A DNA stretch of 63,863 nucleotides, the filler included, from Craspedostauros australis (Eukaryota): NCBI GenBank assembly GCA_030167865.1. It is 13 parts of 13 records of this genome, joined end to end, with 100 filler letters (N's around TTAATTAATTAA, not from the genome) between each part and the next. Parts side by side here need not be neighbours in the genome. Positions count along the whole stretch, not along the records: positions 2,354 to 19,021 come from JALAGF010003597.1; 12 more parts are not named here. One strand, 5' to 3'. A program made the translations under genes and the position numbers. Positions 1 through 17,730 of this stretch are shown in pieces. The notes beneath the pieces are model-generated. The model worked only from the letters and a program-made list of their open reading frames with translations. It was not told the origin of the DNA and searched no databases. The stretch's first letter is position 1; each line of letters starts with the position of its first letter.

Positions 1-1562
1 CGTCCCAACGCAGGTCGTCGGCTGTGCGGCAGTTTGTCGAAGCTGCGGATGGTGACATTGAGCTGCCGCGTGACTTGTCTCAGACACCAATACCAATACG
101 CCTTGGAGGAATCGAGATCCTGGATGGATTCTGGCAATGGCACTGGCGCCGGTGATTCCCACGGTTTGGAATCGCCACTGAAATGGATGAAATCCCGATG
201 CGGGGCATGATCCAAGAACATGGGGTGGCGGGTGCTACCATAGTGGTTGGGGTGCTCCATGCCGATTGGGAGGCATGTCTTGTGCTGCGACCACAGCCAC
301 GACGACTTGTCGATCGCTTCTTTTCGCAGCAGCTTGGGTTTCCTTTCCTTCTGACCATTGTGCTTGCCACCGCCACTGTCGACATTGTCTGCAACGACTG
401 TCGTGATTGTTGCATTGGAGATGGTGGCGCCCAAACCAAACCCAAAACCAGTGTCATGACCAAGGTGAGAGTCAGGATGAGAATCAGAGGTGGATCCCCA
501 ATGCTCCATGTCATCGAGGTTGATGATGGTGACCTGTTGCTTGTGGAACTTGGTCCAATAGTAAAGCAAACCTTGATCTGCAAAGTCTCCGTGGAATGTC
601 CAGTTGATGCCGTCGTACAGCTCGGATGGTGGATATCCTGGCAACCCTGTCCATGATCCGTCCTTGGATTGGATGACACGCCATGGATCATCGTTGGGTA
701 TGGGAGTGCCCCAACCAACGACCGGATCCCAATGCGGATACGGCAATCGCAATGCCTCTTCTTCACGTCTGTGAATGATCTCCTGTATTTGGGGATAGTG
801 GGACACGGCGGGCTCCAAGAGGAAGATGCCACCATGGGCTGGTTCGTTGAACCATGCAAAGATGACGTTGGGCTGCAGCTTGCCGTCGATGGAGGCTTCC
901 AGCAGGTAATCGAGGTTGCACAACGGCATGGCATCGGAATCGAGGTAGAGAACGCGGGAGTAGTGATGCAGCTGCAGGATGCGGAACTTTTCCATTTGCG
1001 CAGCGTAGAAGTTGTCACGGACAGGCTTGGGGAGGTAGATGTACTTGACGCCCATGCGATGGAGCCATGTCTCGTCTCTGGCTGTGAGGGTGGTGTGGTT
1101 GGAGTATTTAGAGATCTGGAGCATGACGATGACATCGGCGTTGCTGCTGTGCGTCTGAAGGATGAACTTGGAGACGAGGATGTTGTAGATGTAGTTCCTG
1201 TAGGACCATGGTTTGTCAGGATCGCAACCTGCAACAAGGAAGGCGTATGCGTACTTTCTCGTGGTCGAAGAGTTAGTCGGCGGAGTGGACGCCGATCCTG
1301 ATGTTGTTGCCGCTGTTGCCAGTGCCGCTCGTGATGCTATTGTCCTTATTGCCGATGTTGCTGTTGGCTCGGCGATGTCCAACATGGAATGGACGATGTG
1401 CATGGAGTAGACGAGCTGGACGACGGCAAATAGCACGATGCAAAGTAGCATGATCAACGATCGAAATCGGTACCATGGTCGGCTCTGTGATTGAGATCCA
1501 GCAACGCCATTCTTCCGCCTCGATCCTTGCTCTTCGGAGATCGCTGCTGGGCGAGCTGTCAT
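1..1562 (-). CDS. Glycosyltransferase family 8 (glycogenin-like) type II membrane protein, 5' part (runs off the window edge; the 3' end is in contig 2)
   Basis: Manual translation from ATG 1562 gives MTARPAAISEEQ..., a TM anchor (LIMLLCIVLFAVVQLVY), KYAYAFLVAGC, DxD motif YSRVLYLDSD, DQGLLYYW and HFSGDSKPW. Missed by the ORF track because there is no stop in the window. Merged with 3628-3703 it gives 545 aa. Confidence 0.85.
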   Translation of the reverse strand, partial: MTARPAAISEEQGSRRKNGVAGSQSQSRPWYRFRSLIMLLCIVLFAVVQLVYSMHIVHSMLDIAEPTATSAIRTIASRAALATAATTSGSASTPPTNSSTTRKYAYAFLVAGCDPDKPWSYRNYIYNILVSKFILQTHSSNADVIVMLQISKYSNHTTLTARDETWLHRMGVKYIYLPKPVRDNFYAAQMEKFRILQLHHYSRVLYLDSDAMPLCNLDYLLEASIDGKLQPNVIFAWFNEPAHGGIFLLEPAVSHYPQIQEIIHRREEEALRLPYPHWDPVVGWGTPIPNDDPWRVIQSKDGSWTGLPGYPPSELYDGINWTFHGDFADQGLLYYWTKFHKQQVTIINLDDMEHWGSTSDSHPDSHLGHDTGFGFGLGATISNATITTVVADNVDSGGGKHNGQKERKPKLLRKEAIDKSSWLWSQHKTCLPIGMEHPNHYGSTRHPMFLDHAPHRDFIHFSGDSKPWESPAPVPLPESIQDLDSSKAYWYWCLRQVTRQLNVTIRSFDKLPHSRRPALG

Positions 1563-2353: not shown

Positions 2354-3703
2354 AACTCTTCGACCACGAGAAAGTACGCATACGCCTTCCTTGTTGCAGG
2401 TTGCGATCCTGACAAACCATGGTCCTACAGGAACTACATCTACAACATCCTCGTCTCCAAGTTCATCCTTCAGACGCACAGCAGCAACGCCGATGTCATC
2501 GTCATGCTCCAGATCTCTAAATACTCCAACCACACCACCCTCACAGCCAGAGACGAGACATGGCTCCATCGCATGGGCGTCAAGTACATCTACCTCCCCA
2601 AGCCTGTCCGTGACAACTTCTACGCTGCGCAAATGGAAAAGTTCCGCATCCTGCAGCTGCATCACTACTCCCGCGTTCTCTACCTCGATTCCGATGCCAT
2701 GCCGTTGTGCAACCTCGATTACCTGCTGGAAGCCTCCATCGACGGCAAGCTGCAGCCCAACGTCATCTTTGCATGGTTCAACGAACCAGCCCATGGTGGC
2801 ATCTTCCTCTTGGAGCCCGCCGTGTCCCACTATCCCCAAATACAGGAGATCATTCACAGACGTGAAGAAGAGGCATTGCGATTGCCGTATCCGCATTGGG
2901 ATCCGGTCGTTGGTTGGGGCACTCCCATACCCAACGATGATCCATGGCGTGTCATCCAATCCAAGGACGGATCATGGACAGGGTTGCCAGGATATCCACC
3001 ATCCGAGCTGTACGACGGCATCAACTGGACATTCCACGGAGACTTTGCAGATCAAGGTTTGCTTTACTATTGGACCAAGTTCCACAAGCAACAGGTCACC
3101 ATCATCAACCTCGATGACATGGAGCATTGGGGATCCACCTCTGATTCTCATCCTGACTCTCACCTTGGTCATGACACTGGTTTTGGGTTTGGTTTGGGCG
3201 CCACCATCTCCAATGCAACAATCACGACAGTCGTTGCAGACAATGTCGACAGTGGCGGTGGCAAGCACAATGGTCAGAAGGAAAGGAAACCCAAGCTGCT
3301 GCGAAAAGAAGCGATCGACAAGTCGTCGTGGCTGTGGTCGCAGCACAAGACATGCCTCCCAATCGGCATGGAGCACCCCAACCACTATGGTAGCACCCGC
3401 CACCCCATGTTCTTGGATCATGCCCCGCATCGGGATTTCATCCATTTCAGTGGCGATTCCAAACCGTGGGAATCACCGGCGCCAGTGCCATTGCCAGAAT
3501 CCATCCAGGATCTCGATTCCTCCAAGGCGTATTGGTATTGGTGTCTGAGACAAGTCACGCGGCAGCTCAATGTCACCATCCGCAGCTTCGACAAACTGCC
3601 GCACAGCCGACGACCTGCGTTGGGACGCTATCCGACCTTCAAATCAATGAAGAACACGATCGAATCTAAACGGAAACAGCAGCAGCAACATCAACAGCAG
3701 TAG
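2354..3703 (+). CDS. Same GT8 glycosyltransferase, 5'-truncated copy containing the stop codon
   Basis: 2354-3627 is the reverse complement of 1-1274. The ORF has LYLDSD (DxD), DQG and HFSGxxKPW motifs and ends in poly-Q. Confidence 0.85.
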   Translation, partial: NSSTTRKYAYAFLVAGCDPDKPWSYRNYIYNILVSKFILQTHSSNADVIVMLQISKYSNHTTLTARDETWLHRMGVKYIYLPKPVRDNFYAAQMEKFRILQLHHYSRVLYLDSDAMPLCNLDYLLEASIDGKLQPNVIFAWFNEPAHGGIFLLEPAVSHYPQIQEIIHRREEEALRLPYPHWDPVVGWGTPIPNDDPWRVIQSKDGSWTGLPGYPPSELYDGINWTFHGDFADQGLLYYWTKFHKQQVTIINLDDMEHWGSTSDSHPDSHLGHDTGFGFGLGATISNATITTVVADNVDSGGGKHNGQKERKPKLLRKEAIDKSSWLWSQHKTCLPIGMEHPNHYGSTRHPMFLDHAPHRDFIHFSGDSKPWESPAPVPLPESIQDLDSSKAYWYWCLRQVTRQLNVTIRSFDKLPHSRRPALGRYPTFKSMKNTIESKRKQQQQHQQQ

Positions 3704-3896
3704 AAGTAGGAACAGGCAAGTGCAGCCGCGAAGCAATGTGCATTGCATAATAGAATAGAACAGAAGGCCAAGAGTAAATGCATTTGTAGATCTAAAGAGT
3801 TCTGTGATTCTCCCTACTCGTATTGTGGCGAGTTCACGACTGACGGTGAGCGGCTTGCTCTTGATACTGCTCGTGGTGTGACTGCTGACACCCGTC

Positions 3897-6800
3897 CTAT
3901 TTTGCCCAATGTGGCCACACGCGTGGCGGCACCCCGTACAGCTTGTCGAAATGTGTGGTAGCGTTGGGGTCCAGCGGGAAAACACATGGCGGACCATCAG
4001 GGCGGCGCTGCTGGTCGCGATCATTGCCATAAGTGTCGCCCGATGCTTCTTTGGCTTTCTTGGCGGCAATCTGCTTGGCCTTCTTCACCTCATCAAAGCC
4101 TGCCGTCGCGCGCTTGGACAAATCCACGGTGGTCACCTTTGCCGCGGATTGCAGCTCTGACAACACCTGCCGCTGTGCAGGCACGCTGTGATCCTCCTCG
4201 TTGGCGTCAGGCAGCCACATAGGAGGGCGCCGGATGTCAGATCGTCGGCGATTGTGGATTCCGGGCGGCTTGCTCCGTTCTTGCTTCTGCGACTTCGCAG
4301 CACCCCACACGGACACCACCTTCTGCAGGGCCGCGTCAATGGGCGTCACTCCGTTTGAGTTTTCCGCGTTGGGGCCCAGCGCAGGGACCTCCGAGGCCAT
4401 TTCGATCAGCATCTTCAGCGTTCCGAAATCGCTCTGCGTGAGACCGCCCTTCATCGTGCGATCCACGCACAGGTGCGTTAGCGAGTTGAGATCGGCATCG
4501 CGGACGGAGAGAGCTTCCTTCGCGCGGCTGGCCAGCTTGTCGATGAGGAACCTTGCCGTGATGCTATCCGCACCTTCCTTGATGGCTATCATCAACGGCG
4601 AGTGCTCAGCCTCCGGACAGAGCAGTGCTTCAGCCACCTCATCGTCGCTGCAGTTGGTCAGCAGAGCGTCGATCAATGCACGACATTGCTCCCACACCTT
4701 GCCCATCGCCTCTTCGGACGAAGCTGTATCCTTATCACCCAACCGCAGTTTGAGAACACCCTTGATTACATCGTCAGGAATGGCGAGGTGGACAGCATTC
4801 CAGTTCTTACCTCCGCTTGTCTTGTGTGGCTTGCATCCCATCTCGATCAGCTTCTTCACCCTGTCGTGTTGATAGGCCGATGTTGCTGCCTTGAGTGGAT
4901 TGATTCCACCTTTCGCCATCTCCTGGTTCAAGAAGATTTCCTTGGCTTCATCTTCGCTGGATGCCAACGATGCATCGACCATCGACTTGCACGCACACTT
5001 CACTGCGGCATCCATCATGTCGGACGGAACGTAGAATAGAGCATTCCTGCCGTCTCCGTCCTGTGCGCTGGGGCTAATAAGACGGTGAAACAGCTCATTG
5101 CGAGTGCAACCTGCACGCGCTCTCTTACACACCCACGTCACGCCAGGTGCCACACCTTTCGCTGGATAGCCATTATACTTCTGTATAGACTTCACCACCT
5201 TGAATTCGCTCATCTTGCCCTTCATTTTGAATATCCAATCCACCACCACCTTGTCCAACGAACCCGACACGAGGGCGTTGATGATCGCGGTTGACCCAAG
5301 AGCCATGGCGAACTGGATGATTGTTGGGCATGGTGGGGTGGAACTGTGTCTATTTCCATTGTGACGGTCCACCGACCAAGTTGGGGTGGTGACTCGGTAT
5401 CCAGCAGTCGGATCAAAGATCTCTTTCGTTTGTTTTTTGCGTGCCTTGACGGTTTTGGCGTCAAGATCACCAAACTCCTTCTTGTCCACCTCACCCTTCC
5501 ATCTCGCGACGGCAGCCACCGGAAGCAGATGCTCGCGGGCGATCTCGGCAATGGCGCTGAAGACCTCCACGTTGTCCATGGCAATTGCGAGCTGCGCCAA
5601 CGTCATGCATCCTAGATCTATGTTGGATGAACCATCTCCGAACAGGATGTAACGGATCTCGCGGTAGTTGAGCTTGTTTTTGGCTTCGGGATCCATTTGG
5701 CCATCGTCACTGTCCTCGTCACAATCCTCGTCGCTGTCTTCGTCGCTTTCGTTGTCACTGTGACCGTGGTCCGTGTCCTCGTCTCCAAGGTCTTCTTCTC
5801 CGGCCTCCTCGTCGTCGCAGTCCATGTCACCGCCGTCATCGTCGACGTCCATGCCATCGGCAGTGGATGCTGCAACCTTTGCCTTGCCTGGGTCGCCTTC
5901 CTCTTCGCTTTCTCCATCATCCTCGAGCTTTTCCACCAGCGCAATGAGGGCTTTCACCATGTTGACATCGCCACGGATGATGGCGAGCTCCATGGGCCTG
6001 AGTCTTGCTGGTTGATCGACCCAATCATGGGAGAAAGAATGAGGTTGCTGCTTCCACAGCTTCTGCTTCAACGCTCTGAGGTTGGTCTCTTGGTCAGCGA
6101 GCACGCTGGAACGATTCATCAACAGCATGTAGGCGGAGATCTTCGAGCTGGTCTTGTCCAGCGCCTTGCTCTGCGTCTGTTGGTTGCTGGCGAATCCTGC
6201 GGCGGCCTCCAGCTGCTGCCTCATCATGTCGGGCGTTGGGCGTGTGTTCTTGGGCGTTTCGCCTGCAGCGATCTCAAGGTTGTTGAGGCGCTTGAGCTTG
6301 TCCTTCAGGTTGAGTGTCTCCGGTTCGCCGTCGTCTTCTTCGCTGGCCTTCTGGGCATCACGAAGTGCCTTGCGCCAGTCCAGGTACGCCTGGTGCTGCT
6401 TCATGGCATTCTCGAAGATTGTCTGCACGCATTCCACGGAGCCAGACCGGACGGCGAGGAAGAGAGGGGTGTAGCCAACGGTGTCGATGATCGCAATCTT
6501 GGATTCGAGGCAGGCGTCGGATGCTGCCGCCGCGTCGCCTGTCGCCGCAGCCAGCAACAGGTTGTTGGCGGCATCTATGGCCGGATCTGGAAGGTTGTTG
6601 CCACGGAAGTTGCGATACGACAATCCCCAGGTCCAGTTACACAGTTGGTAGAAAGCGATCATCTGGAGTTCGCAGCAGTCCAGGAATGGCTCCATCTCCA
6701 TCGCTCCAGTTTGTGCTCTGTCAACGTACCCAGTTGCATCTGCTGGTTTTGCTTCGTTTGTGTCAGGATGACTCTTGCCGCCGTACGACTTGATCATCTT

Positions 6801-9800
6801 CGTCACTTCTTCCAAGCGCTCCCTGGCCTTCGCCTCGATTTCGTTATCTTCGTCAGTGATTTCCAGCTTATTGAGGGAGAAGTCTCTCACCTTCTTCATA
6901 TCTTCCTCTTGCTGGATGAGGATGGACCAAACGGCATACTTGTAGCGGTCGTTAGAGGAGTTGTTTTGCTTCTTGGTGGCTTGCTTGATGACGGTTTCAT
7001 GATTTTTGGTTTGCAGCTCGAGCTGCGACCTCTGCGCCTTGAGGTTCATTTCGTTCGATTTGCTCACGAGCGATGTCCGCTTGACTTCGTCAATGAGATC
7101 GAGCATCGCGGCTTGTCTAGTCGCTGGTTGCTGGCGCTGCCGCTTGTATCGGCCACCCGTGCTGTGCTTCTCTCCCTCAATTCGGATGGTTGCGTTTGCC
7201 AACGCTGCGTCATGCTCAAGATACGCCTTGAGGCAGTCAACGTCGGCATGCTGGACTGCCACGGAGATGGGACATCGGAAATTTTCGTATTCCCGCCTCA
7301 CCGAGCCGCTGTTGTAGTAGACGCGATTGCCGTTTGCGCGCATGGATTCTTGGAGCTGCTGCGCTCGTGCCTCCCACTCCTCCACTTCGTATGTGAGTGT
7401 CGCGCCTGCCTCGAGAAAGATGGAGACTGCCTCACTGTTGCCGCAGAAAGTGGCAAGGTACAGGGGTGTGCGAAAGCGCGTGTCGATCACATCCAGAGCC
7501 TTGGCCTTGCCACCATGCTTCGCGGCATCTCTTTCCGCAAGCATGCGCAGCAGGTGCAAGGATCGCGGATTGGTGGAGACGGCCAAGCGGTGCCACAATG
7601 AACTCATGTCCATGTCGACGCCTGCTGCGGTGCATCCAGCCTCCATGAGCACATCCAGCATCTCATCGATGAGTGGCTGGCCTTGCTCGCCGCATTCATT
7701 GGCAAAGACGGCCAGCAATGCCAACGAACTCAGACTCTCGTTGCGATCCTTGTGAACGGCACTCTTCTGGACGTCGGCGGAGTAGGACACAAGCAACTTG
7801 ATCATGTTGACGTGTCCCAGCACGATGGCGTATTGCAGCGGGTTCATCTTAATCACCCAGTCGGCGCCATCGATGTCGAAGATGTCCATGAGCACCTCCT
7901 CCTCGCTCTTCTCTTCTTCCTCTTCCTCCTTCTCGTCTCCGCCATCTTCTTCGCCTTCGTTGTCTCCGCTCTTCACATCAGACTTGTCCTTCGATGTGGC
8001 CATGGCTTGTGCGGCGAGCACCTTGCGCTTCTCCAGGATCATCTTGGCTGTGTCCACGTCGCCGCGGATGCCACACAAGTGCAACGCCGTGCGACCATCG
8101 GCCAGACGGTACTTCAAGTAGTCGGAGTCCGCATCCTTGTGCTTGAGGAGGATCTCTGCTGCCGCCGTGGAATGCGCCAGCACCGCCACGTGCAAGGCGG
8201 AACGACCCAAGAAATCACGGGACGTGAGCAGCACCTTGGACTCCTCTTCTGTCTTGCATGCCGCGAACATCTTCTCGATCTGCGCCACGTCGTTGGCAAT
8301 CACGGCCAGCATCAACGCCTCGGTGGCGCGGGACATGTAAGCGCCCTCGGTCCAGTCGCTCTCCGTGATGGGGTTGAAGGATCCGATCTGCTGACGTCCA
8401 GGATTGTCCACGAGCCACGACAGCTTGCCATGGACCATGGCTTCCATTCCTTCCGGAATGGTGTCTTCGGGGAACGGGGGGTCGTCGGGGAAGGGATCCT
8501 TGATGACTTCCTCCATGGATCCCACAGCGCAGACGTGGATCTTGTATTCACGCTCGCATGCCTTGACGCGGTTGTCGGCGGTGAATTCGATCTGGTTGAG
8601 GATGCGGTCCTTCTTCTTCATCTGCTTCTCGATCCTCTTGGCCGTCCAGTTGGGACCCCAAGGCAAGAAGACGGTGGAGTAGTTGGAGGCGTGCGTGGCA
8701 GCGAAAGCGGGGATCATGGTCTCGACGCCCTCGGCACGTTCGACGTTGCGGTCGTCACCAGCGATCTTGTAAATCTTGCTGCGGACCATCCACTCCATGC
8801 TGCCGTAGTATCCGCTTTTGGCCTTCGTCTTGAGCTGCGCCTCGATGCGGTAACGGAGACGTTCCATGGGGGTGCGGAGACGCTCCAGCATGAGAAGGCG
8901 AGACAATCCCTTGGTTTGATCGAAGCGTTTCTCGTAAAGGAACGGGTCCACACGATCACGGTCGAGGTTGGGAACGGCGACTGTTGGTTTGGTTTGGATT
9001 AGATTTGATTGGTTTGGGGAGATGAAGGTGCGACGGAGATGAAAGTAGAGGGGGTATTCGTATGGAGTAGAGATATTGGTTAGATTGGTGTGGCGATGAA
9101 GGGGCAATGTACGGAAGGCAGAAATCTACATTGTGCTCGAAGGAAGACAGGCAACAAAGAGTACTCTTGGCTGCAGACACTCACCTTCAAAGCCACGTTG
9201 GGCGTACTTTGCCAAACGCATCTCGTAGCTTGGGGAACGACGGGTCATGTCCACCGTGTTGCATTGGGTCTTCATGGCCAATGCCGTACGTGGGCAGACA
9301 TACACCTCCTTGCCATCGTAACCGACGGCACAGGCATCGACATCAAATCCCATCAAGATCTCGGAGGGAGAGTTGTAGAGACGCAGCACGATCTGAACGT
9401 GGCGGAATGGGTACTGCGACACCAAGGTGACGGCATGTGCCGAACGGAAGGCACGGATCTCGTACGGGTTGGCGGCCTGGACGGCATCGTAGATCTCAAG
9501 GAGCTTGGCTTCCGCCTCTTCCTCCGTAAGTCCGTAGAGGAAGAGATCGATGTCCGATCCGGGCAAGTAGTCATCGTGGAAGTACTTGCGGCGCTTGACG
9601 TGGGTGGCGGACCGACCACCGCCCTTGATCTCTTCTGGCAACGGTGCCATGCATCCAGCAACGGCGCCGCCAGCGCAGAAGACGTTGTTCCAATCGATGA
9701 AACGGAGCAAGCCTTCGGAGAAGCAATCCCAGGAGATCTGGAAGTCCTTGAGGTTGTCGACGGTGGTGAGATTGCCGACGGGGATCTTCTTGCGGAACTT

Positions 9801-10247
9801 GTTGGCGTCGGCCTTGGCGGCCTTGGCAGCGGCGCGGTTGCAGGCGCTTTCGTCATCGTCCTCGCTATCCTCCTCGTCGTCGTCGTTGTCATCGTTGTCG
9901 TCGTTGTCATCGTTGTCATCCTTCATCTCGTTGTTGTTGTCGGTTGCATCACCGCCCTCATCGAGGGGGAAGCAACGCGGGTTGGTGTCCTCATCCTTGA
10001 ACTCGGAGAGGCGCTTGAAGAGATCGGGGGTTCCGAAGGCGTTGAGGAGAAAGACGAAGGGATCGTCAATCTCCGGCACCTCCCAGGAATCGCGCTTGCG
10101 AGCGAAGAGTTCTCGGTAGAGATTCTCGGATTCGATGGCCTTGCTGCGGATGGAATCCAAATCCGCGAAGGACTTGATGTCGAGGACGTCTTGGATGAAG
10201 TCCTCCACCTTCATGGTCTTGGTGGTGGTGGTCAAAGATGCTTCCAT
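3897..10247 (-). CDS. 2048-aa protein: N-terminal pol-beta-fold nucleotidyltransferase-like domain plus multiple ankyrin-repeat clusters; two exons (10247-9185, 8980-3897)
   Basis: Intron 9184-8981 (GTGAGT...CAACAG, phase 1) joins RGFE to VAVPNLDR in frame (6147 nt). NTase signature VFCAGGAV...SDIDLFLYG...FDVD; ankyrin motifs GRSALHVAV, GRTALHLC, NPLQYAI, RTPLYLA, GYTPLFLAV, HSPLMIA, GVTPIDAA. Confidence 0.85.
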
Positions 10248-13781: not shown

Positions 13782-14235
13782 TGTCTTTTTGGAGGTTTTG
13801 ACTGAGATTTTCTCATTTTGTTGGCACATTTTGGCAGAATCGTGCTTGTTTCTGTCGTTTTCTTGATTTCTCCTTCTTGTCTGTCTGCGTGTGGAACCAT
13901 GTGTCTGTTTGTCTGTCTGTTTGATCGAGAAGTATAGATTCACCGACTTCTGACATCAACAACGACAATGTTGTTTGTGCACAACCGAGTCGTGTATTCG
14001 CAATGTGCGCAACAAACTCGACTCAATGGAATGCTTGAACCTGTCCAAACAACAACTACGGAATTCGAAAAACACACGACAAGTCACGTACTCCTCGGGT
14101 GAATGTCTTTCACCTCTGTTGCCGTTTGTCACGTTGTCATGTTCTTGGCGCACATGTCAGTACCCATGCTTGCACTTCCACCAGGCATGTTTGCGATTGC
14201 TTCTGCAGGAACCACAAATCGTGAGAGACGCGAAG

Positions 14236-17200
14236 ATGAAACACCTGCGCAGCCGTCGCCTCTTCTGGGCGGTTGCTCTCATGTCCTCCAGCCTCGTGAC
14301 CCTATCAACGACCTTGGTGGTGGCCTCGTCGCTTCCCGAAGGCGTGGTGCCGCCGATAGGCAACCTCATCCGAGACAAGGTGTCGTCGGTGTATTCGGCT
14401 GCCGAGAATGGGAACGTCTCCCGCGGCGGCGGGCTTTTGGTCATCTCCACAGTGGATGGAAAGATCCACGTGCTGGATGCCCAGACCGGGATGCTCAAGA
14501 GCTCGTTCCCGTCCGGACGATCCCTGGTGGGCGCATCCTCGTCCATTGATGGCACTGATGGCGGCGGTGACGGCGACAGAGATGATGCTCGAGGCCAAAG
14601 GATCGTTCCAGGACTGGATGGACGCTTGTACGTGGACGACCAGACCACCGAGCTTCTGGAGCCGCTGTCCATCACCGTCCTCGACGTGTTGCAGAGTCCA
14701 GTGAAGACCTGCTCGACGGCCCTGGATGAGGGTGAAGAGTTCGCCAATTGCGGGATCGTCACGGCCAGTAAAACCAAATCCCTGTTCGCCCTGGATGGGC
14801 AGAGCGGAGCGCTGCTTTGGCATCAGGATGCGCAGGGAGACACGACTCGCAACGAGCACATCGATGCGGTGGACATCTCAGGCCACACGGTGCTTCTGCA
14901 GCGTGAGGACGTGGCCGTCCGCCAGATATCAGCGGCAACCGGGAATCAGGTCTGGAACGTGACGCTGGGACTGATGCAGGCGCTAGATTTTACGGAGGAT
15001 GATGACGAGGGCGAAGCATTTGACGAATGGAGCCTGCCCCACCGCACCAGCAATGCCGAGCCATCCAATCGCATCGCCCCTCCGAGTGGGGACATATTCG
15101 AACCAGGAAAGAGCAGTGCGCCGGACGTGGCCGCGATCCCCACCGTCGTCTTCGGCGACGATGGCCAATCAATACTGGCTGTGCTAGTGGGGAAGAATCC
15201 GCACGCGAAGGCAAACCGAAAGAGAAGGGCACAGCAGGATACGAATACATGGGAGCAGGAGTTCGATTCTGTCATCGCATCGGTGTTTGGTGTCAGCGGA
15301 GCGAAGTGGGTTTCGGTCACAGTCGTGGATGACATCGCAGACGTCGACACCGTGGTGCAGCCCCAGCACCACGCCTTGGCAACGCCCAACGTAATGGGTG
15401 ACCCTGCATATTTCGCGGGCATGGGCGCCGCCGCCGCTGCGGATGCGATCCAACCACCCAGTCTTGGCGACGAGGCCGATGAGAAGTTAGGCCTGACGTT
15501 CTACCGAGAACCGAACTTGCAAGATGCGATAGACCGGCAATGGCGAATCGCAGCGTGGCGACGGCACACGAACAATCTCCTAACCAGAGCATCCTACCGG
15601 CAATGCTTCCTCACGGGGTTATGCAGCCAATACGATGCGGAACTGCTGGCCGAAGCCGACATACAACAGCAGCACCAACTTCAACTTCAACAGCCTTCCT
15701 GGAAGCACAGGCTCGCGCTTCCGTCGCCACCATCATGGATAGCGGAAGAAGGAACGCACATCAAAGGATCGCAATCGGGGATCTTCCTGAGCTGGAAGGT
15801 AATCATCACCATTGCCATGCTGCTGGCTGGCATCGCAATTGCGTTTAATCGCCGGATGCGGAAGATTCTCCTGAGGTCGATCGCTGAAGTGCAGAAGCAA
15901 ACGATTGCGGATGCACAGAAGCAGACGATAGCGGAGAAACGTTTCAAGGAACAACTAGCAGTATTCAATACTGGGCAGTCAGCATCATCATCAGACCATC
16001 CAAGATTCGAGGCGCCGAAGAAGGGATTCATCCGAAGCCAGAGCATGCCGCTTGTTGGTAGTTCATCGGGGAATGGTAAACCCCACCCATCAACCGTGAT
16101 CTCTTCCAACTCCAACGATCTCTACACAACCAACTTTTCACCCCTGCTTCATGAGAACGACAATCACCACGATGTCGATGAAAAGACATCGACTCCTTCA
16201 GGCTCGCAAGGTGCACAAGCAGGAAGCAAAACGACGATGGAACAAAACGACTCGAAGGCTGCAGAAACACAGCACATCGGAGACATCGATGGAATTCCGC
16301 TGATTCGATATGCAAGGTACGACTCTGAATTCAATGAGGTGGTTGCACTGGGGAAAGGTGGCTTTGGGTCCGTCTTTCGGTGTCAGAATGTGCTCGACAG
16401 CCGCGAGTACGCCATCAAAAAGATCTTCATCCAGTACAACCCGAACAAGGAGCAGCTCAAAGGCTTCTCCAGGAGATTGCAGCGTGTGCTGCGGGAAGTC
16501 AAAGTACTTGCCCTTCTCGACCATCCCAACATCGTCCGGTACTACACGGCGTGGCTGGAGCTGGACAGCTCCATCTCTCGCAAAGACAAGGGTTCGGAGA
16601 ATCTCAACGCCGACGACTACTACCTGCCGGGCTCGTCTTCGTCGCGGATGTTTGATGACAGCGAGACAGTGGAACAAAGCAAAACGGCACACTCTAAATC
16701 GCGCAGATTCATGGACGGTTCGTCGAGCGAACTTTTCTTTCGTGGCGGGGGTGGTGGTGATGGCGGTGCCGGTTGCATGCCGCGCTACTATGCCGACGAC
16801 AGCTTCACGTTTGACCGCGACACAACCCGCAATAATAATGGCGCGGACGAAACCGAGAGTCAAGATGACAGATACGCAGACTGCGGTTTCACTTTCGAAG
16901 ATACTGCTACGAGCAAGGATGACGCAGGCGAGACCACGAGCGACAAGGATGACATCGATCAATCGCTGATCGGTAGCTCGAAGCGAGAGCTCGAATCGGG
17001 TACGTCTACGGGTATGTCAAACAGGCCAATCAACTCCGTGGCAGAAGAAGCAGCAACAGCTGAGCGCGACGAGACCAATGGTACAGGCGCACGCGCAGAC
17101 GCAGACACAGGTCCGGCAGAAGCCAAGAATGCCTCGAAAAAGGAAATCCTGCGCCATACGCTATTCATTCAGATGCAATTCTGCAGCCAGCAAACGCTTG

Positions 17201-17730
17201 CCGAATTCCTTCTCGACGAAGAGGCTCGCAAGGGCCCATCGCAATCGGATGTGGTTGACATTCCATTTGCGCTGCAGTTGTTCATGCAAATCGTGCAGGG
17301 GGTGCAGCATGTTCATTCGCAGGGCCTCATCCATAGAGACCTCAAGCCAAACAACTGCTTCATCGACAACAACGGTGTTGTGAAAGTCGGGGACTTTGGA
17401 CTGAGTCGTGACACCAACGATCAGCTCACCTCGGAGCTTGGTGCTGTGGACGAAACAGAGTCTTCAAATGGCGTGGACATCACGGCAGGAGTGGGCACTC
17501 GCTCGTACGCAAGCCCGGAGCAAATGAGCGGGTCGGACTACGATTCGTCCACGGATATCTACTCATTAGGTGTGATCTTGTTCGAGCTGTGCTATCCCAT
17601 GTACACGGTAAGTCCGACGCAATTTTCACCCTTGAAGCCAGGCGTGTGCGTAGAAGACTCCAAAACGCAGTGAGCGTACTCTATCCATGTGATTCGCTTT
17701 ACTCTACTTTTTTTAACATAAGCGATGCGG

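What the first reader, a model, noticed from the sequence alone, without database searches (positions are those of the whole stretch)
3897..10247. Giant nucleotidyltransferase-ankyrin protein of unknown function
Seen: after splicing, an N-terminal domain with an intact pol-beta-type signature (AGGAV...SDIDLF, later FDVD and YEMRLAKY..RGF), a conserved-looking linker (WLVDNPGRQQIGSFNP), then about 1400 aa of ankyrin clusters and acidic tracts. Known: this fold underlies poly(A) polymerases, CCA enzymes, AMPylators and cGAS/OAS-type signal synthases. From memory and needing confirmation, similar NTase-ankyrin proteins occur in fungi, protists and giant viruses, annotated only as ankyrin proteins. 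Inference: a sensor-coupled nucleotidyltransferase (signalling, immunity or protein/RNA modification) that is uncharacterised in diatoms.
Basis: partly seen in the sequence, partly recalled or inferred. Interest (0 to 1): 0.7.

Follow-up and report, generated by a model that had tools for sequence, protein, structure and literature searches.

The report
Gad2-like nucleotidyltransferase with ankyrin scaffold
This is a real two-exon gene, probably from a diatom, for a large protein that starts with an intact-looking nucleotide-adding enzyme related to a phage anti-immunity protein and continues as a long ankyrin scaffold; fungi, protists, algae and giant viruses carry the same protein, and its target is not known.

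Summary
Observation confirmed. One 204-nt GT-AG intron joins the two ORFs into a 2,048-aa protein. The junction aligns without a gap to transcript-derived diatom homologues; no RNA from this organism covers it. The N-terminal domain is Pfam PF26128 (Gad2), homologous to the phage anti-Gabija protein (profile-profile P=97.9%). A confident model of a close homologue matches class II CCA/A-adding/poly(A) enzymes (Z 9.8) and TENT5 best, not cGAS/OAS. DxD is kept in 244 of 245 homologues. The class II RRD motif reads GFD, the EDxxR template is missing and Gln stands where a third carboxylate is expected, so it is no CCA enzyme; the host has two ordinary ones. The 'linker' belongs to the enzyme module. 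The rest is a helical ankyrin solenoid with no second enzyme found. The gene was found once in this genome, groups with diatom proteins, and has orthologues in fungi, amoebae, green algae and other protists; giant viruses carry full-length copies. Best guess: a template-free transferase adding nucleotides to nucleic-acid 3' ends, aimed by the ankyrins (0.4); protein NMPylation 0.3. This scan noted the same family before in three fungal windows.

The parts
9185..10247 (-). Exon 1 (residues 1-354 plus one base); ATG at 10247, a second possible ATG at 10214
8981..9184 (-). 204-nt phase-1 intron, GTGAGT donor, CTAAT branch-like site, CAG acceptor
   Evidence: gap-free junction against homologues
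3897..8980 (-). Exon 2 (residues 355-2048 and stop)
9843..9947 (-). Asp/Asn-rich insertion (about residues 101-135), missing from close homologues
   Evidence: gap fraction 0.99 over residues 101-150 in 16 close homologues
9186..9722 (-). Gad2-family (PF26128) nucleotidyltransferase core, residues 176-354
9540..9674 (-). Motif A: AGG (192-194) to DxD (D232, D234), the metal-binding signature
   Evidence: D232 in 244 of 245, D234 in 245 of 245 homologues
9393..9395 (-). Q285, conserved Gln at the place where a third carboxylate is expected
   Evidence: 244 of 245 eukaryotic-type and 12 of 12 viral proteins; 12 of 14 Gad2-family proteins; position assigned by analogy
9336..9350 (-). GFDVD (300-304), standing in for class II motif B (RRD)
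   Evidence: F301 244 of 245, D302 245 of 245, D304 244 of 245; register
9189..9242 (-). RRSPSYEMRLAKYAQRGF (336-353), basic helix shared in outline with Gad2 and class II enzymes
   Evidence: R344 and K347 in 242 of 245
8334..8963 (-). Second subdomain of the enzyme module (361-570), with Y455 (8679-8681) and PGRQQIGSFNP (within 8370-8417)
   Evidence: Y455 in 226 of 230 aligned homologues (4 gaps); PGxQ..SF in 8 of 12 viral proteins; not detected in Gad2; well folded in the model
3900..8315 (-). Ankyrin clusters, long helices and acidic loops (577-2048); acidic tracts near 7884-7973 and 5694-5921
   Evidence: Pfam Ank_2 E=9.8e-28; model pLDDT 75.5, pTM 0.76, with mainly ankyrin matches

Best explanation
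A single-copy, host-encoded member of an old eukaryotic family: a Gad2-type, class II-like nucleotidyltransferase module (residues about 1-570) on an ankyrin solenoid. Shown here: gene structure, family, fold, conserved catalytic residues, distribution. Inferred with about 0.85 confidence: it is an active, metal-dependent enzyme that binds a nucleotide triphosphate at D232/D234 and transfers the monophosphate to a hydroxyl. Inferred with about 0.4 confidence, and the mechanism I commit to: the acceptor is the 3' end of a nucleic acid, extended without a template and with loose base choice, because the amino-acid template (EDxxR) is gone. Phe in place of the ribose-recognising Arg leaves open RNA or DNA ends and NTP or dNTP. 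The ankyrins bind a partner protein that brings the enzyme to that end or switches it on. Viruses carry the same chemistry, plausibly to protect or repair ends that host nucleases attack.
For: The top 32 rows of the structural re-alignment are class II CCA/A-adding/poly(A) enzymes or TENT5, all RNA 3'-end transferases (best Z 9.8, rmsd 3.7, 182 aligned); the independent wide search agrees (Z 9.6, rmsd 4.1, 183 aligned). D232, D234, D302, R268, R289, R320, R336, R344, K347 and R351 are kept in 239-245 of 245 homologues, a basic pocket that suits phosphate backbones (inference). A Pandoravirus protein with the same Gln and D-F-D features was read as a class II NTase of relaxed specificity (10.1101/2023.12.02.569716, section 14). 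Two homologues end in a BRCT domain and one has an HMG box, of 24 picked for length or odd layout. Four of the phage relatives fetched sit beside primase/polymerase, ligase, nuclease/SSB or exonuclease genes. Gabija acts at phage DNA ends (PMC12904381 passages).
Against: No activity is measured for any member, and Gad2's mechanism is unknown (PMC12904381). Sequence identity to the solved folds is 8-18%, and a shared fold does not show function. The RNA-binding part of class II enzymes (PF12627) is not detected. Most fusion partners are protein-binding modules (ankyrin, TPR, BTB, WD40, BRCT), which fits a protein acceptor just as well. The phage neighbourhood count has no control, and most fetched neighbours are hypothetical genes. 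My profile alignment to the host's two CCA-type enzymes was not significant (P 0.4%), so the RRD-to-GFD register rests on the preprint and on motif spacing.
Confidence: 0.4

Rival explanations
1. Protein NMPylation. The ankyrin clusters pick a protein substrate, as in tankyrase or AnkX-type layouts (recalled), and the enzyme adds AMP or another NMP to Tyr/Ser/Thr. A variant is self-priming on the conserved Y455, as the Hailong enzyme HalB does on its own tyrosine.
For: Fusion partners across the family are protein-binding domains. Gad2 disables a protein complex (10.1101/2023.05.01.538930 passages). Y455 is kept in 226 of 230 aligned homologues and 3 of 3 full-length viral ones and follows a flexible loop in the model. 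HalB priming on tyrosine: PMC13434031 passage.
Against: The top 32 fold matches act on RNA ends. Y455 may be structural, and it is missing from the shorter viral forms and from Gad2. Its distance to the active site could not be measured because model coordinates are not given.
Confidence: 0.3
2. Signal synthase: the ankyrins sense a ligand and the enzyme makes a free cyclic or linear oligonucleotide.
For: Enzyme-plus-repeat layout; several paralogues in some fungi (Tulasnella, Mycena); shared with viruses. A nucleotide product could also explain the block of Gabija (inference).
Against: The one CD-NTase listed ranks 26th with probability 0.25. One copy found in this genome. About 55% core identity between this protein and fungal homologues is high for an immune sensor (inference). 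No effector-like gene among the two neighbours examined: a GT8-like glycosyltransferase and a kinase.
Confidence: 0.15
3. Housekeeping tRNA CCA-adding or poly(A) polymerase with an odd appendage.
For: The closest folds are exactly these enzymes; a Pandoravirus relative was proposed to mature tRNA.
Against: RRD and EDxxR are absent. No PF01743 or PF12627 hit at E<=1. The host has two intact enzymes with RRD[FL]T and DDPLR.
Confidence: 0.05
4. Inactive scaffold, or a recent giant-virus insertion with no cellular role.
For: No third carboxylate at the expected place; giant viruses carry full-length copies.
Against: Near-invariant catalytic residues. A spliceosomal intron. GC3 0.72 against 0.65-0.67 in the neighbours, while the full-length viral loci are 29-34% GC. 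The protein sits in a 13-row group with Ditylum and Chaetoceros proteins (SH-aLRT 99), away from viral rows. Class II enzymes are reported to work with two carboxylates (cited).
Confidence: 0.05

Closest known systems
Gad2 (Gabija anti-defence 2) of Bacillus phage SPbetaL7, OQ921347.1 109563-110765; Pfam PF26128
   Same: Same ordered motifs (AGG, DxD, Q, F/Y-D, R..KY..+G) over 145 columns; profile-profile P=97.9%, E=4.6e-13, against at most 1.3% in 20 column shuffles; all 120 listed homologues carry PF26128.
   Different: 16% identity in that alignment and no significant BLASTP match. Gad2 is 400 aa with no ankyrins and no detectable 361-570 subdomain. D304 is Thr/His/Ser there. Eukaryotes have no Gabija (own knowledge), so the target cannot be the same protein.
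Class II nucleotidyltransferases (bacterial/eukaryotic CCA-adding, Aquifex-type A-adding, E. coli poly(A) polymerase; PF01743)
   Same: Closest solved folds for head plus neck: 3wfo Z 9.8, 3h37 Z 8.3, 3aql Z 7.8; motif A kept.
   Different: RRD reads GFD, no EDxxR template, Gln for the third carboxylate, no PF01743/PF12627 hit, a different C-terminal subdomain, and a 1,470-aa ankyrin extension.
Pandoravirus 'cluster 7' BTB-nucleotidyltransferases (10.1101/2023.12.02.569716) and giant-virus NTase-ankyrin proteins such as Fadolivirus A0A7D3QUG1
   Same: Gln instead of the third carboxylate, xFD instead of RRD, no EDxxR. The Fadolivirus model matches at E=1.5e-37, TM 0.75. Four giant-virus contigs encode 1,509-1,553-aa proteins with the same module; the two scanned carry ankyrins.
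   Different: Pandoravirus forms carry BTB, not ankyrins. Membership of cluster 7 is inferred from motifs and from fold hits to Pandoravirus BTB proteins, not from a direct sequence comparison. All are predictions without assays.
TENT5/FAM46 non-canonical poly(A) polymerases
   Same: Second-closest fold group (6jyj Z 6.7, rmsd 4.7, 190 aligned).
   Different: About 10% identity, Z in the range that may reflect only a common arrangement; no ankyrin scaffold.
cGAS/OAS/CD-NTase signal synthases
   Same: Same pol-beta superfamily and DxD.
   Different: Weak structural match only (CdnC, probability 0.25); no partner effector seen nearby.

Membership tests
Pol-beta nucleotidyltransferase superfamily | hG[GS]...DxD motif A | tested here: met
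   AGG 192-194, D232, D234; 244 and 245 of 245 homologues. The spacer is 37 residues, longer than the usual 9-13, because of an insert.
Pol-beta nucleotidyltransferase superfamily | NTase head fold | tested here: met
   Model of homologue P0013 (68% identical over the core), pLDDT 89.9; Z 9.8 to 3wfo. The window protein's own core was not folded.
Pol-beta nucleotidyltransferase superfamily | Metal-dependent NMP transfer | not testable with these tools
   Needs an assay.
PF26128 Gad2 domain family | Profile match to the family | tested here: met
   PF26128 on 120 of 120 listed homologues; Atlas top clusters PF26128 Gad2, score 0.96; own profile test P=97.9%. The local Pfam copy lacks this model, so the window protein was not scored against it directly.
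Gad2 as a functional class | Blocks Gabija defence | not testable with these tools
   Shown only for two phage/prophage proteins.
Class II CCA-adding / poly(A) polymerase | Motif B RRD | tested here: not met
   GFD in its place: F301 244 of 245, D302 245 of 245; register by analogy.
Class II CCA-adding / poly(A) polymerase | EDxxR (DDxxR) nucleotide template | tested here: not met
   The stretch reads DMTRRSPSYEMR; the host's own enzymes have DDPLR.
Class II CCA-adding / poly(A) polymerase | PF01743 head-domain profile | tested here: not met
   No hit at E<=1; the host's two enzymes score E about 1e-22.
Class II CCA-adding / poly(A) polymerase | Head and neck fold | tested here: met
cGAS/OAS/CD-NTase | Closest structural similarity to cGAS-type two-lobed synthases | tested here: inconclusive
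   Only CdnC is listed, rank 26, probability 0.25; an unlisted family is not excluded.
cGAS/OAS/CD-NTase | Makes cyclic or 2'-5' oligonucleotides | not testable with these tools
   Needs an assay.
Hailong HalB-like protein-primed synthase | Priming tyrosine next to the active site | tested here: inconclusive
   A near-invariant Tyr exists (Y455), but its geometry could not be measured.
Eukaryotic Gad2-NTase-ankyrin family (undescribed in the papers searched) | NTase core + PGxQ..GSF subdomain + ankyrin clusters in one chain | tested here: met
   103 of 120 listed homologues carry ankyrin Pfams; 151 of 163 long homologues carry the PGxQ..GSF motif; end-to-end alignment to P0003, P0007, P0017.

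The most novel reading that the evidence does not exclude
An ancient eukaryotic and giant-virus enzyme class that writes untemplated deoxynucleotide or mixed tails on DNA ends, or on its own conserved tyrosine, under control of an ankyrin solenoid. It would be a eukaryotic DNA-end protection or guard system that shares its chemistry with the phage anti-Gabija protein, and so would also explain how Gad2 works.
Probability: 0.12. Interest if true: 0.9.

Novelty: new variant of a known kind. Interest (0 to 1): 0.55.

Why it matters
The family is large (4,451 representatives at 50% clustering match the core), spans several eukaryotic supergroups and giant viruses, keeps about 55% core identity between diatoms and fungi, and has no measured activity. 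Its only characterised relative is a phage anti-defence protein whose mechanism is unresolved. One assay on the roughly 570-aa module would define a new branch of terminal or protein nucleotidyltransferases and bear on how Gad2 blocks Gabija. What lowers the score: Pfam already tags the domain, this scan has noted the fungal form three times, and this copy adds range (diatoms), not a new feature.

Tried and rejected
Expression: no RNA holder was listed. The one run laid (X1, contigs, RNA only a guess) covers 3500-4195 and nothing at the intron, so it says nothing on splicing. Pfam (local copy), NCBIfam and PADLOC do not recognise the NTase domain; PHROG 1614 'nucleotidyltransferase' does, weakly (E=7.7e-5; 36 of 56 members of A1). 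No useful sequence match among solved structures (1 hit, E=0.65). Gad2 as a single sequence does not match significantly: BLASTP nothing, profile P=0.18%, 9.3 bits against a best shuffle of 8.9 among 3,200; only family-to-family comparison is significant. Profile alignment to the host's two CCA-type heads was not significant. No relative in prokaryotic genomes by the pattern scan (0 of 106 candidates), which needs near-exact motifs and is no proof of absence. The single-sequence scan of viral contigs found none (0 of 59). A shared intron position with fungi was looked for and not found: short fungal ORFs mostly break about 13 residues later; these short forms look like exon fragments, not stand-alone proteins. 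The UniRef name 'poly [ADP-ribose] polymerase' on the Chaetoceros tenuissimus homologue was checked: Pfam finds only ankyrins. No second catalytic domain was found in residues 900-2048. The Atlas gave no usable hit for residues 356-581. HalB, cGAS and OAS are not among the listed fold matches. Whether the C-terminal ankyrins dock on the enzyme module got no verdict and stays open. Ten paper searches (and none left) were run; those aimed at this family listed no paper whose title or abstract start describes the eukaryotic NTase-ankyrin protein. The library lacks most subscription journals. One search found no paper for the recalled point that mutating the motif B arginine lets class II enzymes use dNTPs, so that point is recall only.
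Full report
Gene structure. The interval holds two minus-strand ORFs. The spliced junction RGFE|VAVPNLDRDRVDP aligns without a gap in all 21 homologues printed. The spliced protein aligns end to end with P0003 (42%), P0007 (40%) and P0017 (34%); P0007 and P0017 cluster with Ditylum brightwellii and Chaetoceros debilis transcriptome proteins. Splicing in this organism is inferred, not seen. Searches of the own genome with the core and with the next subdomain each found only this locus (one candidate scored each time, so a lower bound).

Family. The 195-aa core matched 1,193 of 2,380 candidates among longer proteins. All 120 listed carry PF26128 and 103 of the 120 also carry ankyrin Pfams; sources name them 'ankyrin repeat protein' or 'hypothetical'. 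The Atlas names PF26128 as Gad2. An unfiltered search found 4,451 representatives at E<=1e-3. Gad2 is a 400-aa anti-Gabija protein of Bacillus phages, predicted by AlphaFold to be a nucleotidyltransferase and toxic when expressed (10.1101/2023.05.01.538930; passages read; its supplementary homologue tables were not read and may list non-phage members). A 2026 review says its mechanism is still unknown (PMC12904381, passages). I tested the link directly. Gad2 alone does not match significantly. A 14-sequence Gad2-family alignment, picked by me from 201-212 phage records plus one locus, matches the 210-row eukaryotic core at P=97.9%, E=4.6e-13 over 145 columns. The Gad2 profile scores the window core at 26.8 bits and 206 of 210 cores above 15 bits. 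Twenty column shuffles reached at most P=1.3%, against 97.4% unshuffled on the same 60 rows.

Fold and active site. The window's module is split by the intron, so I folded a continuous homologue (P0013, 68% identical over the core): pLDDT 89.9, pTM 0.89. Foldseek gave one hit at E<=1e-3 (FAM46C, 9.6e-4), followed by class II CCA/A-adding/poly(A) enzymes and more TENT5 chains; CdnC came 26th. Re-alignment put class II enzymes first (3wfo Z 9.8, rmsd 3.7, 182 aligned), and the first 32 rows are class II or TENT5 enzymes. The wide search agreed. Among 245 homologues, chosen by similarity to the query and so biased, D232 is kept in 244, D234 in 245, Q285 in 244, F301 in 244, D302 in 245, D304 in 244, R344 and K347 in 242. 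In 12 giant-virus proteins, D232, D234, Q285, D302, R344 and K347 are kept in all 12. These came from 13 of 16 loci scanned, with one duplicate and two short ORFs dropped, and the loci were found with patterns containing some of these residues, so this is partly circular. In the Gad2 alignment DxD is in 14 of 14, the Gln in 12 of 14 and an aromatic residue before Asp in 13 of 14. Against class II enzymes, RRD (ribose recognition; PMC2910056 passages) reads GFD, EDxxR is missing and Gln replaces the third carboxylate. A preprint reports the same three changes in Pandoravirus BTB-NTases and reads them as relaxed base specificity (10.1101/2023.12.02.569716, section 14 read). My own profile alignment to the host's CCA-type enzymes was not significant, so the register leans on that preprint. 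The host has two ordinary class II enzymes with RRD[FL]T and DDPLR, so this gene is not its CCA enzyme.

The 'linker' and the tail. Residues 361-570 are found in 151 of 151 more distant full-length homologues, in ankyrin-free Gymnopilus proteins that repeat the whole module twice, and, as the PGxQ..SF motif, in 8 of 12 viral proteins; they were not detected in Gad2. They are therefore part of the enzyme module of the eukaryote/giant-virus branch. Y455 is kept in 226 of 230 aligned homologues (4 gaps). Residues 577-2048 give 4 Ank_2 stretches. A model of 900-2048 (pLDDT 75.5, pTM 0.76) is almost all helical with disordered acidic loops, and its Foldseek matches are mainly ankyrin proteins and DARPins with low overall TM-scores. 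Conservation falls to 12-38% per bin after residue 950 even among 16 close homologues.

Distribution and history. Named carriers include diatoms, dinoflagellates, Blastocystis, green algae, chytrid to basidiomycete fungi, amoebozoans, Lacrimia and Spironema; one Atlas cluster is commonest in rotifers. Giant viruses have full-length copies (Fadolivirus, TM 0.75; four contigs; ankyrins confirmed in the two scanned) and many BTB-, vWA- or stand-alone forms. A quick maximum-likelihood tree (74 hand-picked rows, 424 columns, SH-aLRT only, midpoint root, many rows unnamed; the careful search did not finish) puts the window protein in a 13-row group with Ditylum and Chaetoceros (99). Fungi form one group (98) and the amoebozoan rows another (96); the three full-length viral rows group together outside these. 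With the intron and host-like GC3, this points to old vertical inheritance and not a recent viral insertion. Direction of transfer was not tested. Of 24 homologues picked for length or odd layout, 2 add a C-terminal BRCT, 1 an HMG box, and 3 have TPRs in place of ankyrins.

Mechanism. An active NMP transferase is likely (about 0.85). For the acceptor I commit to nucleic-acid 3' ends (0.4). The nearest folds all do this, the pocket is lined with near-invariant basic residues, some members carry BRCT or HMG domains, four fetched phage relatives sit beside replication or recombination genes (no control, and most other neighbours are hypothetical), and Gabija acts at DNA ends. Protein NMPylation is the main rival (0.3): most fused domains bind proteins, and a conserved tyrosine could act as an acceptor, as in HalB (PMC13434031 passage). 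A diffusible signal (0.15), a plain CCA or poly(A) role (0.05) and an inactive or viral relic (0.05) are less likely. That the ankyrins sense a ligand or gate the enzyme is an inference from layout only.

Literature seen. Passages or sections of nine papers were read: 10.1101/2023.05.01.538930, 10.64898/2026.09.15.751885 (a toxic phage NTase, annotated as Gad2-family in some phages, numbered next to the primase/helicase gene), 10.1101/2023.12.02.569716, PMC12904381, PMC13728456, PMC2910056, PMC13434031, PMC5871332 and PMC7824862; also 10.64898/2026.10.14.759114, which proved unrelated. None of the passages describes the eukaryotic NTase-ankyrin protein. Earlier notes of this scan report the same family in three fungal windows; I had reached the PF26128/Gad2 reading before opening them, and no note names a diatom.

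Verdict. A real gene and a new variant of a known kind: the eukaryotic, ankyrin-fused branch of the Gad2 family, uncharacterised in the papers searched but already tagged by Pfam. Interest 0.55.

Noticed in passing
window 1-1274 and 2354-3627: Bases 1-1274 are a 100% identical inverted copy of 2354-3627 across a scaffold gap, duplicating most of the GT8-like gene; probably an assembly artefact or a collapsed haplotype.
   Followed up: partly
window 13954-17673 (+): The neighbouring gene is a kinase with an N-terminal PQQ-type propeller and a likely membrane segment, i.e. a PERK-like eIF2-alpha kinase layout (label recalled). No link to the NTase gene was tested.
   Followed up: partly
window 2354-3703 (+): GT8-like glycosyltransferase gene (E=8.7e-5, below Pfam's cut-off) converging on the NTase gene, with about 190 bases between the stops. 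Run X1 has contigs over 3500-3777 and 3775-4195.
   Followed up: partly
P0001, P0004 (Gymnopilus dilepis): Ankyrin-free proteins with two complete NTase modules in tandem, one with an N-terminal WD40 region; a hint that the module may work as a pair.
   Followed up: no
P0117 (Cochliopodium minus), P0061, P0124, P0188, P0194, P0229: Other layouts: NTase-ankyrin-BRCT, NTase-ankyrin with an HMG box, and TPR-NTase.
   Followed up: partly
P0268 (Chaetoceros tenuissimus): UniRef names this orthologue 'poly [ADP-ribose] polymerase', but Pfam finds only ankyrins and no PARP domain: a likely mis-annotation.
   Followed up: yes
L011-L014: Full-length viral NTase-ankyrin genes lie in a similar neighbourhood, one or two genes after an ORF with an RNase HII-like start (GIDEAGRG; label recalled). 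Three large contigs carry two or more shorter NTase paralogues.
   Followed up: no
P0251 and P0254 (Ditylum transcript 1320): One Ditylum transcript gives the protein in two pieces (1,570 and 351 aa) while others give 1,927 aa; probably an assembly frameshift.
   Followed up: no
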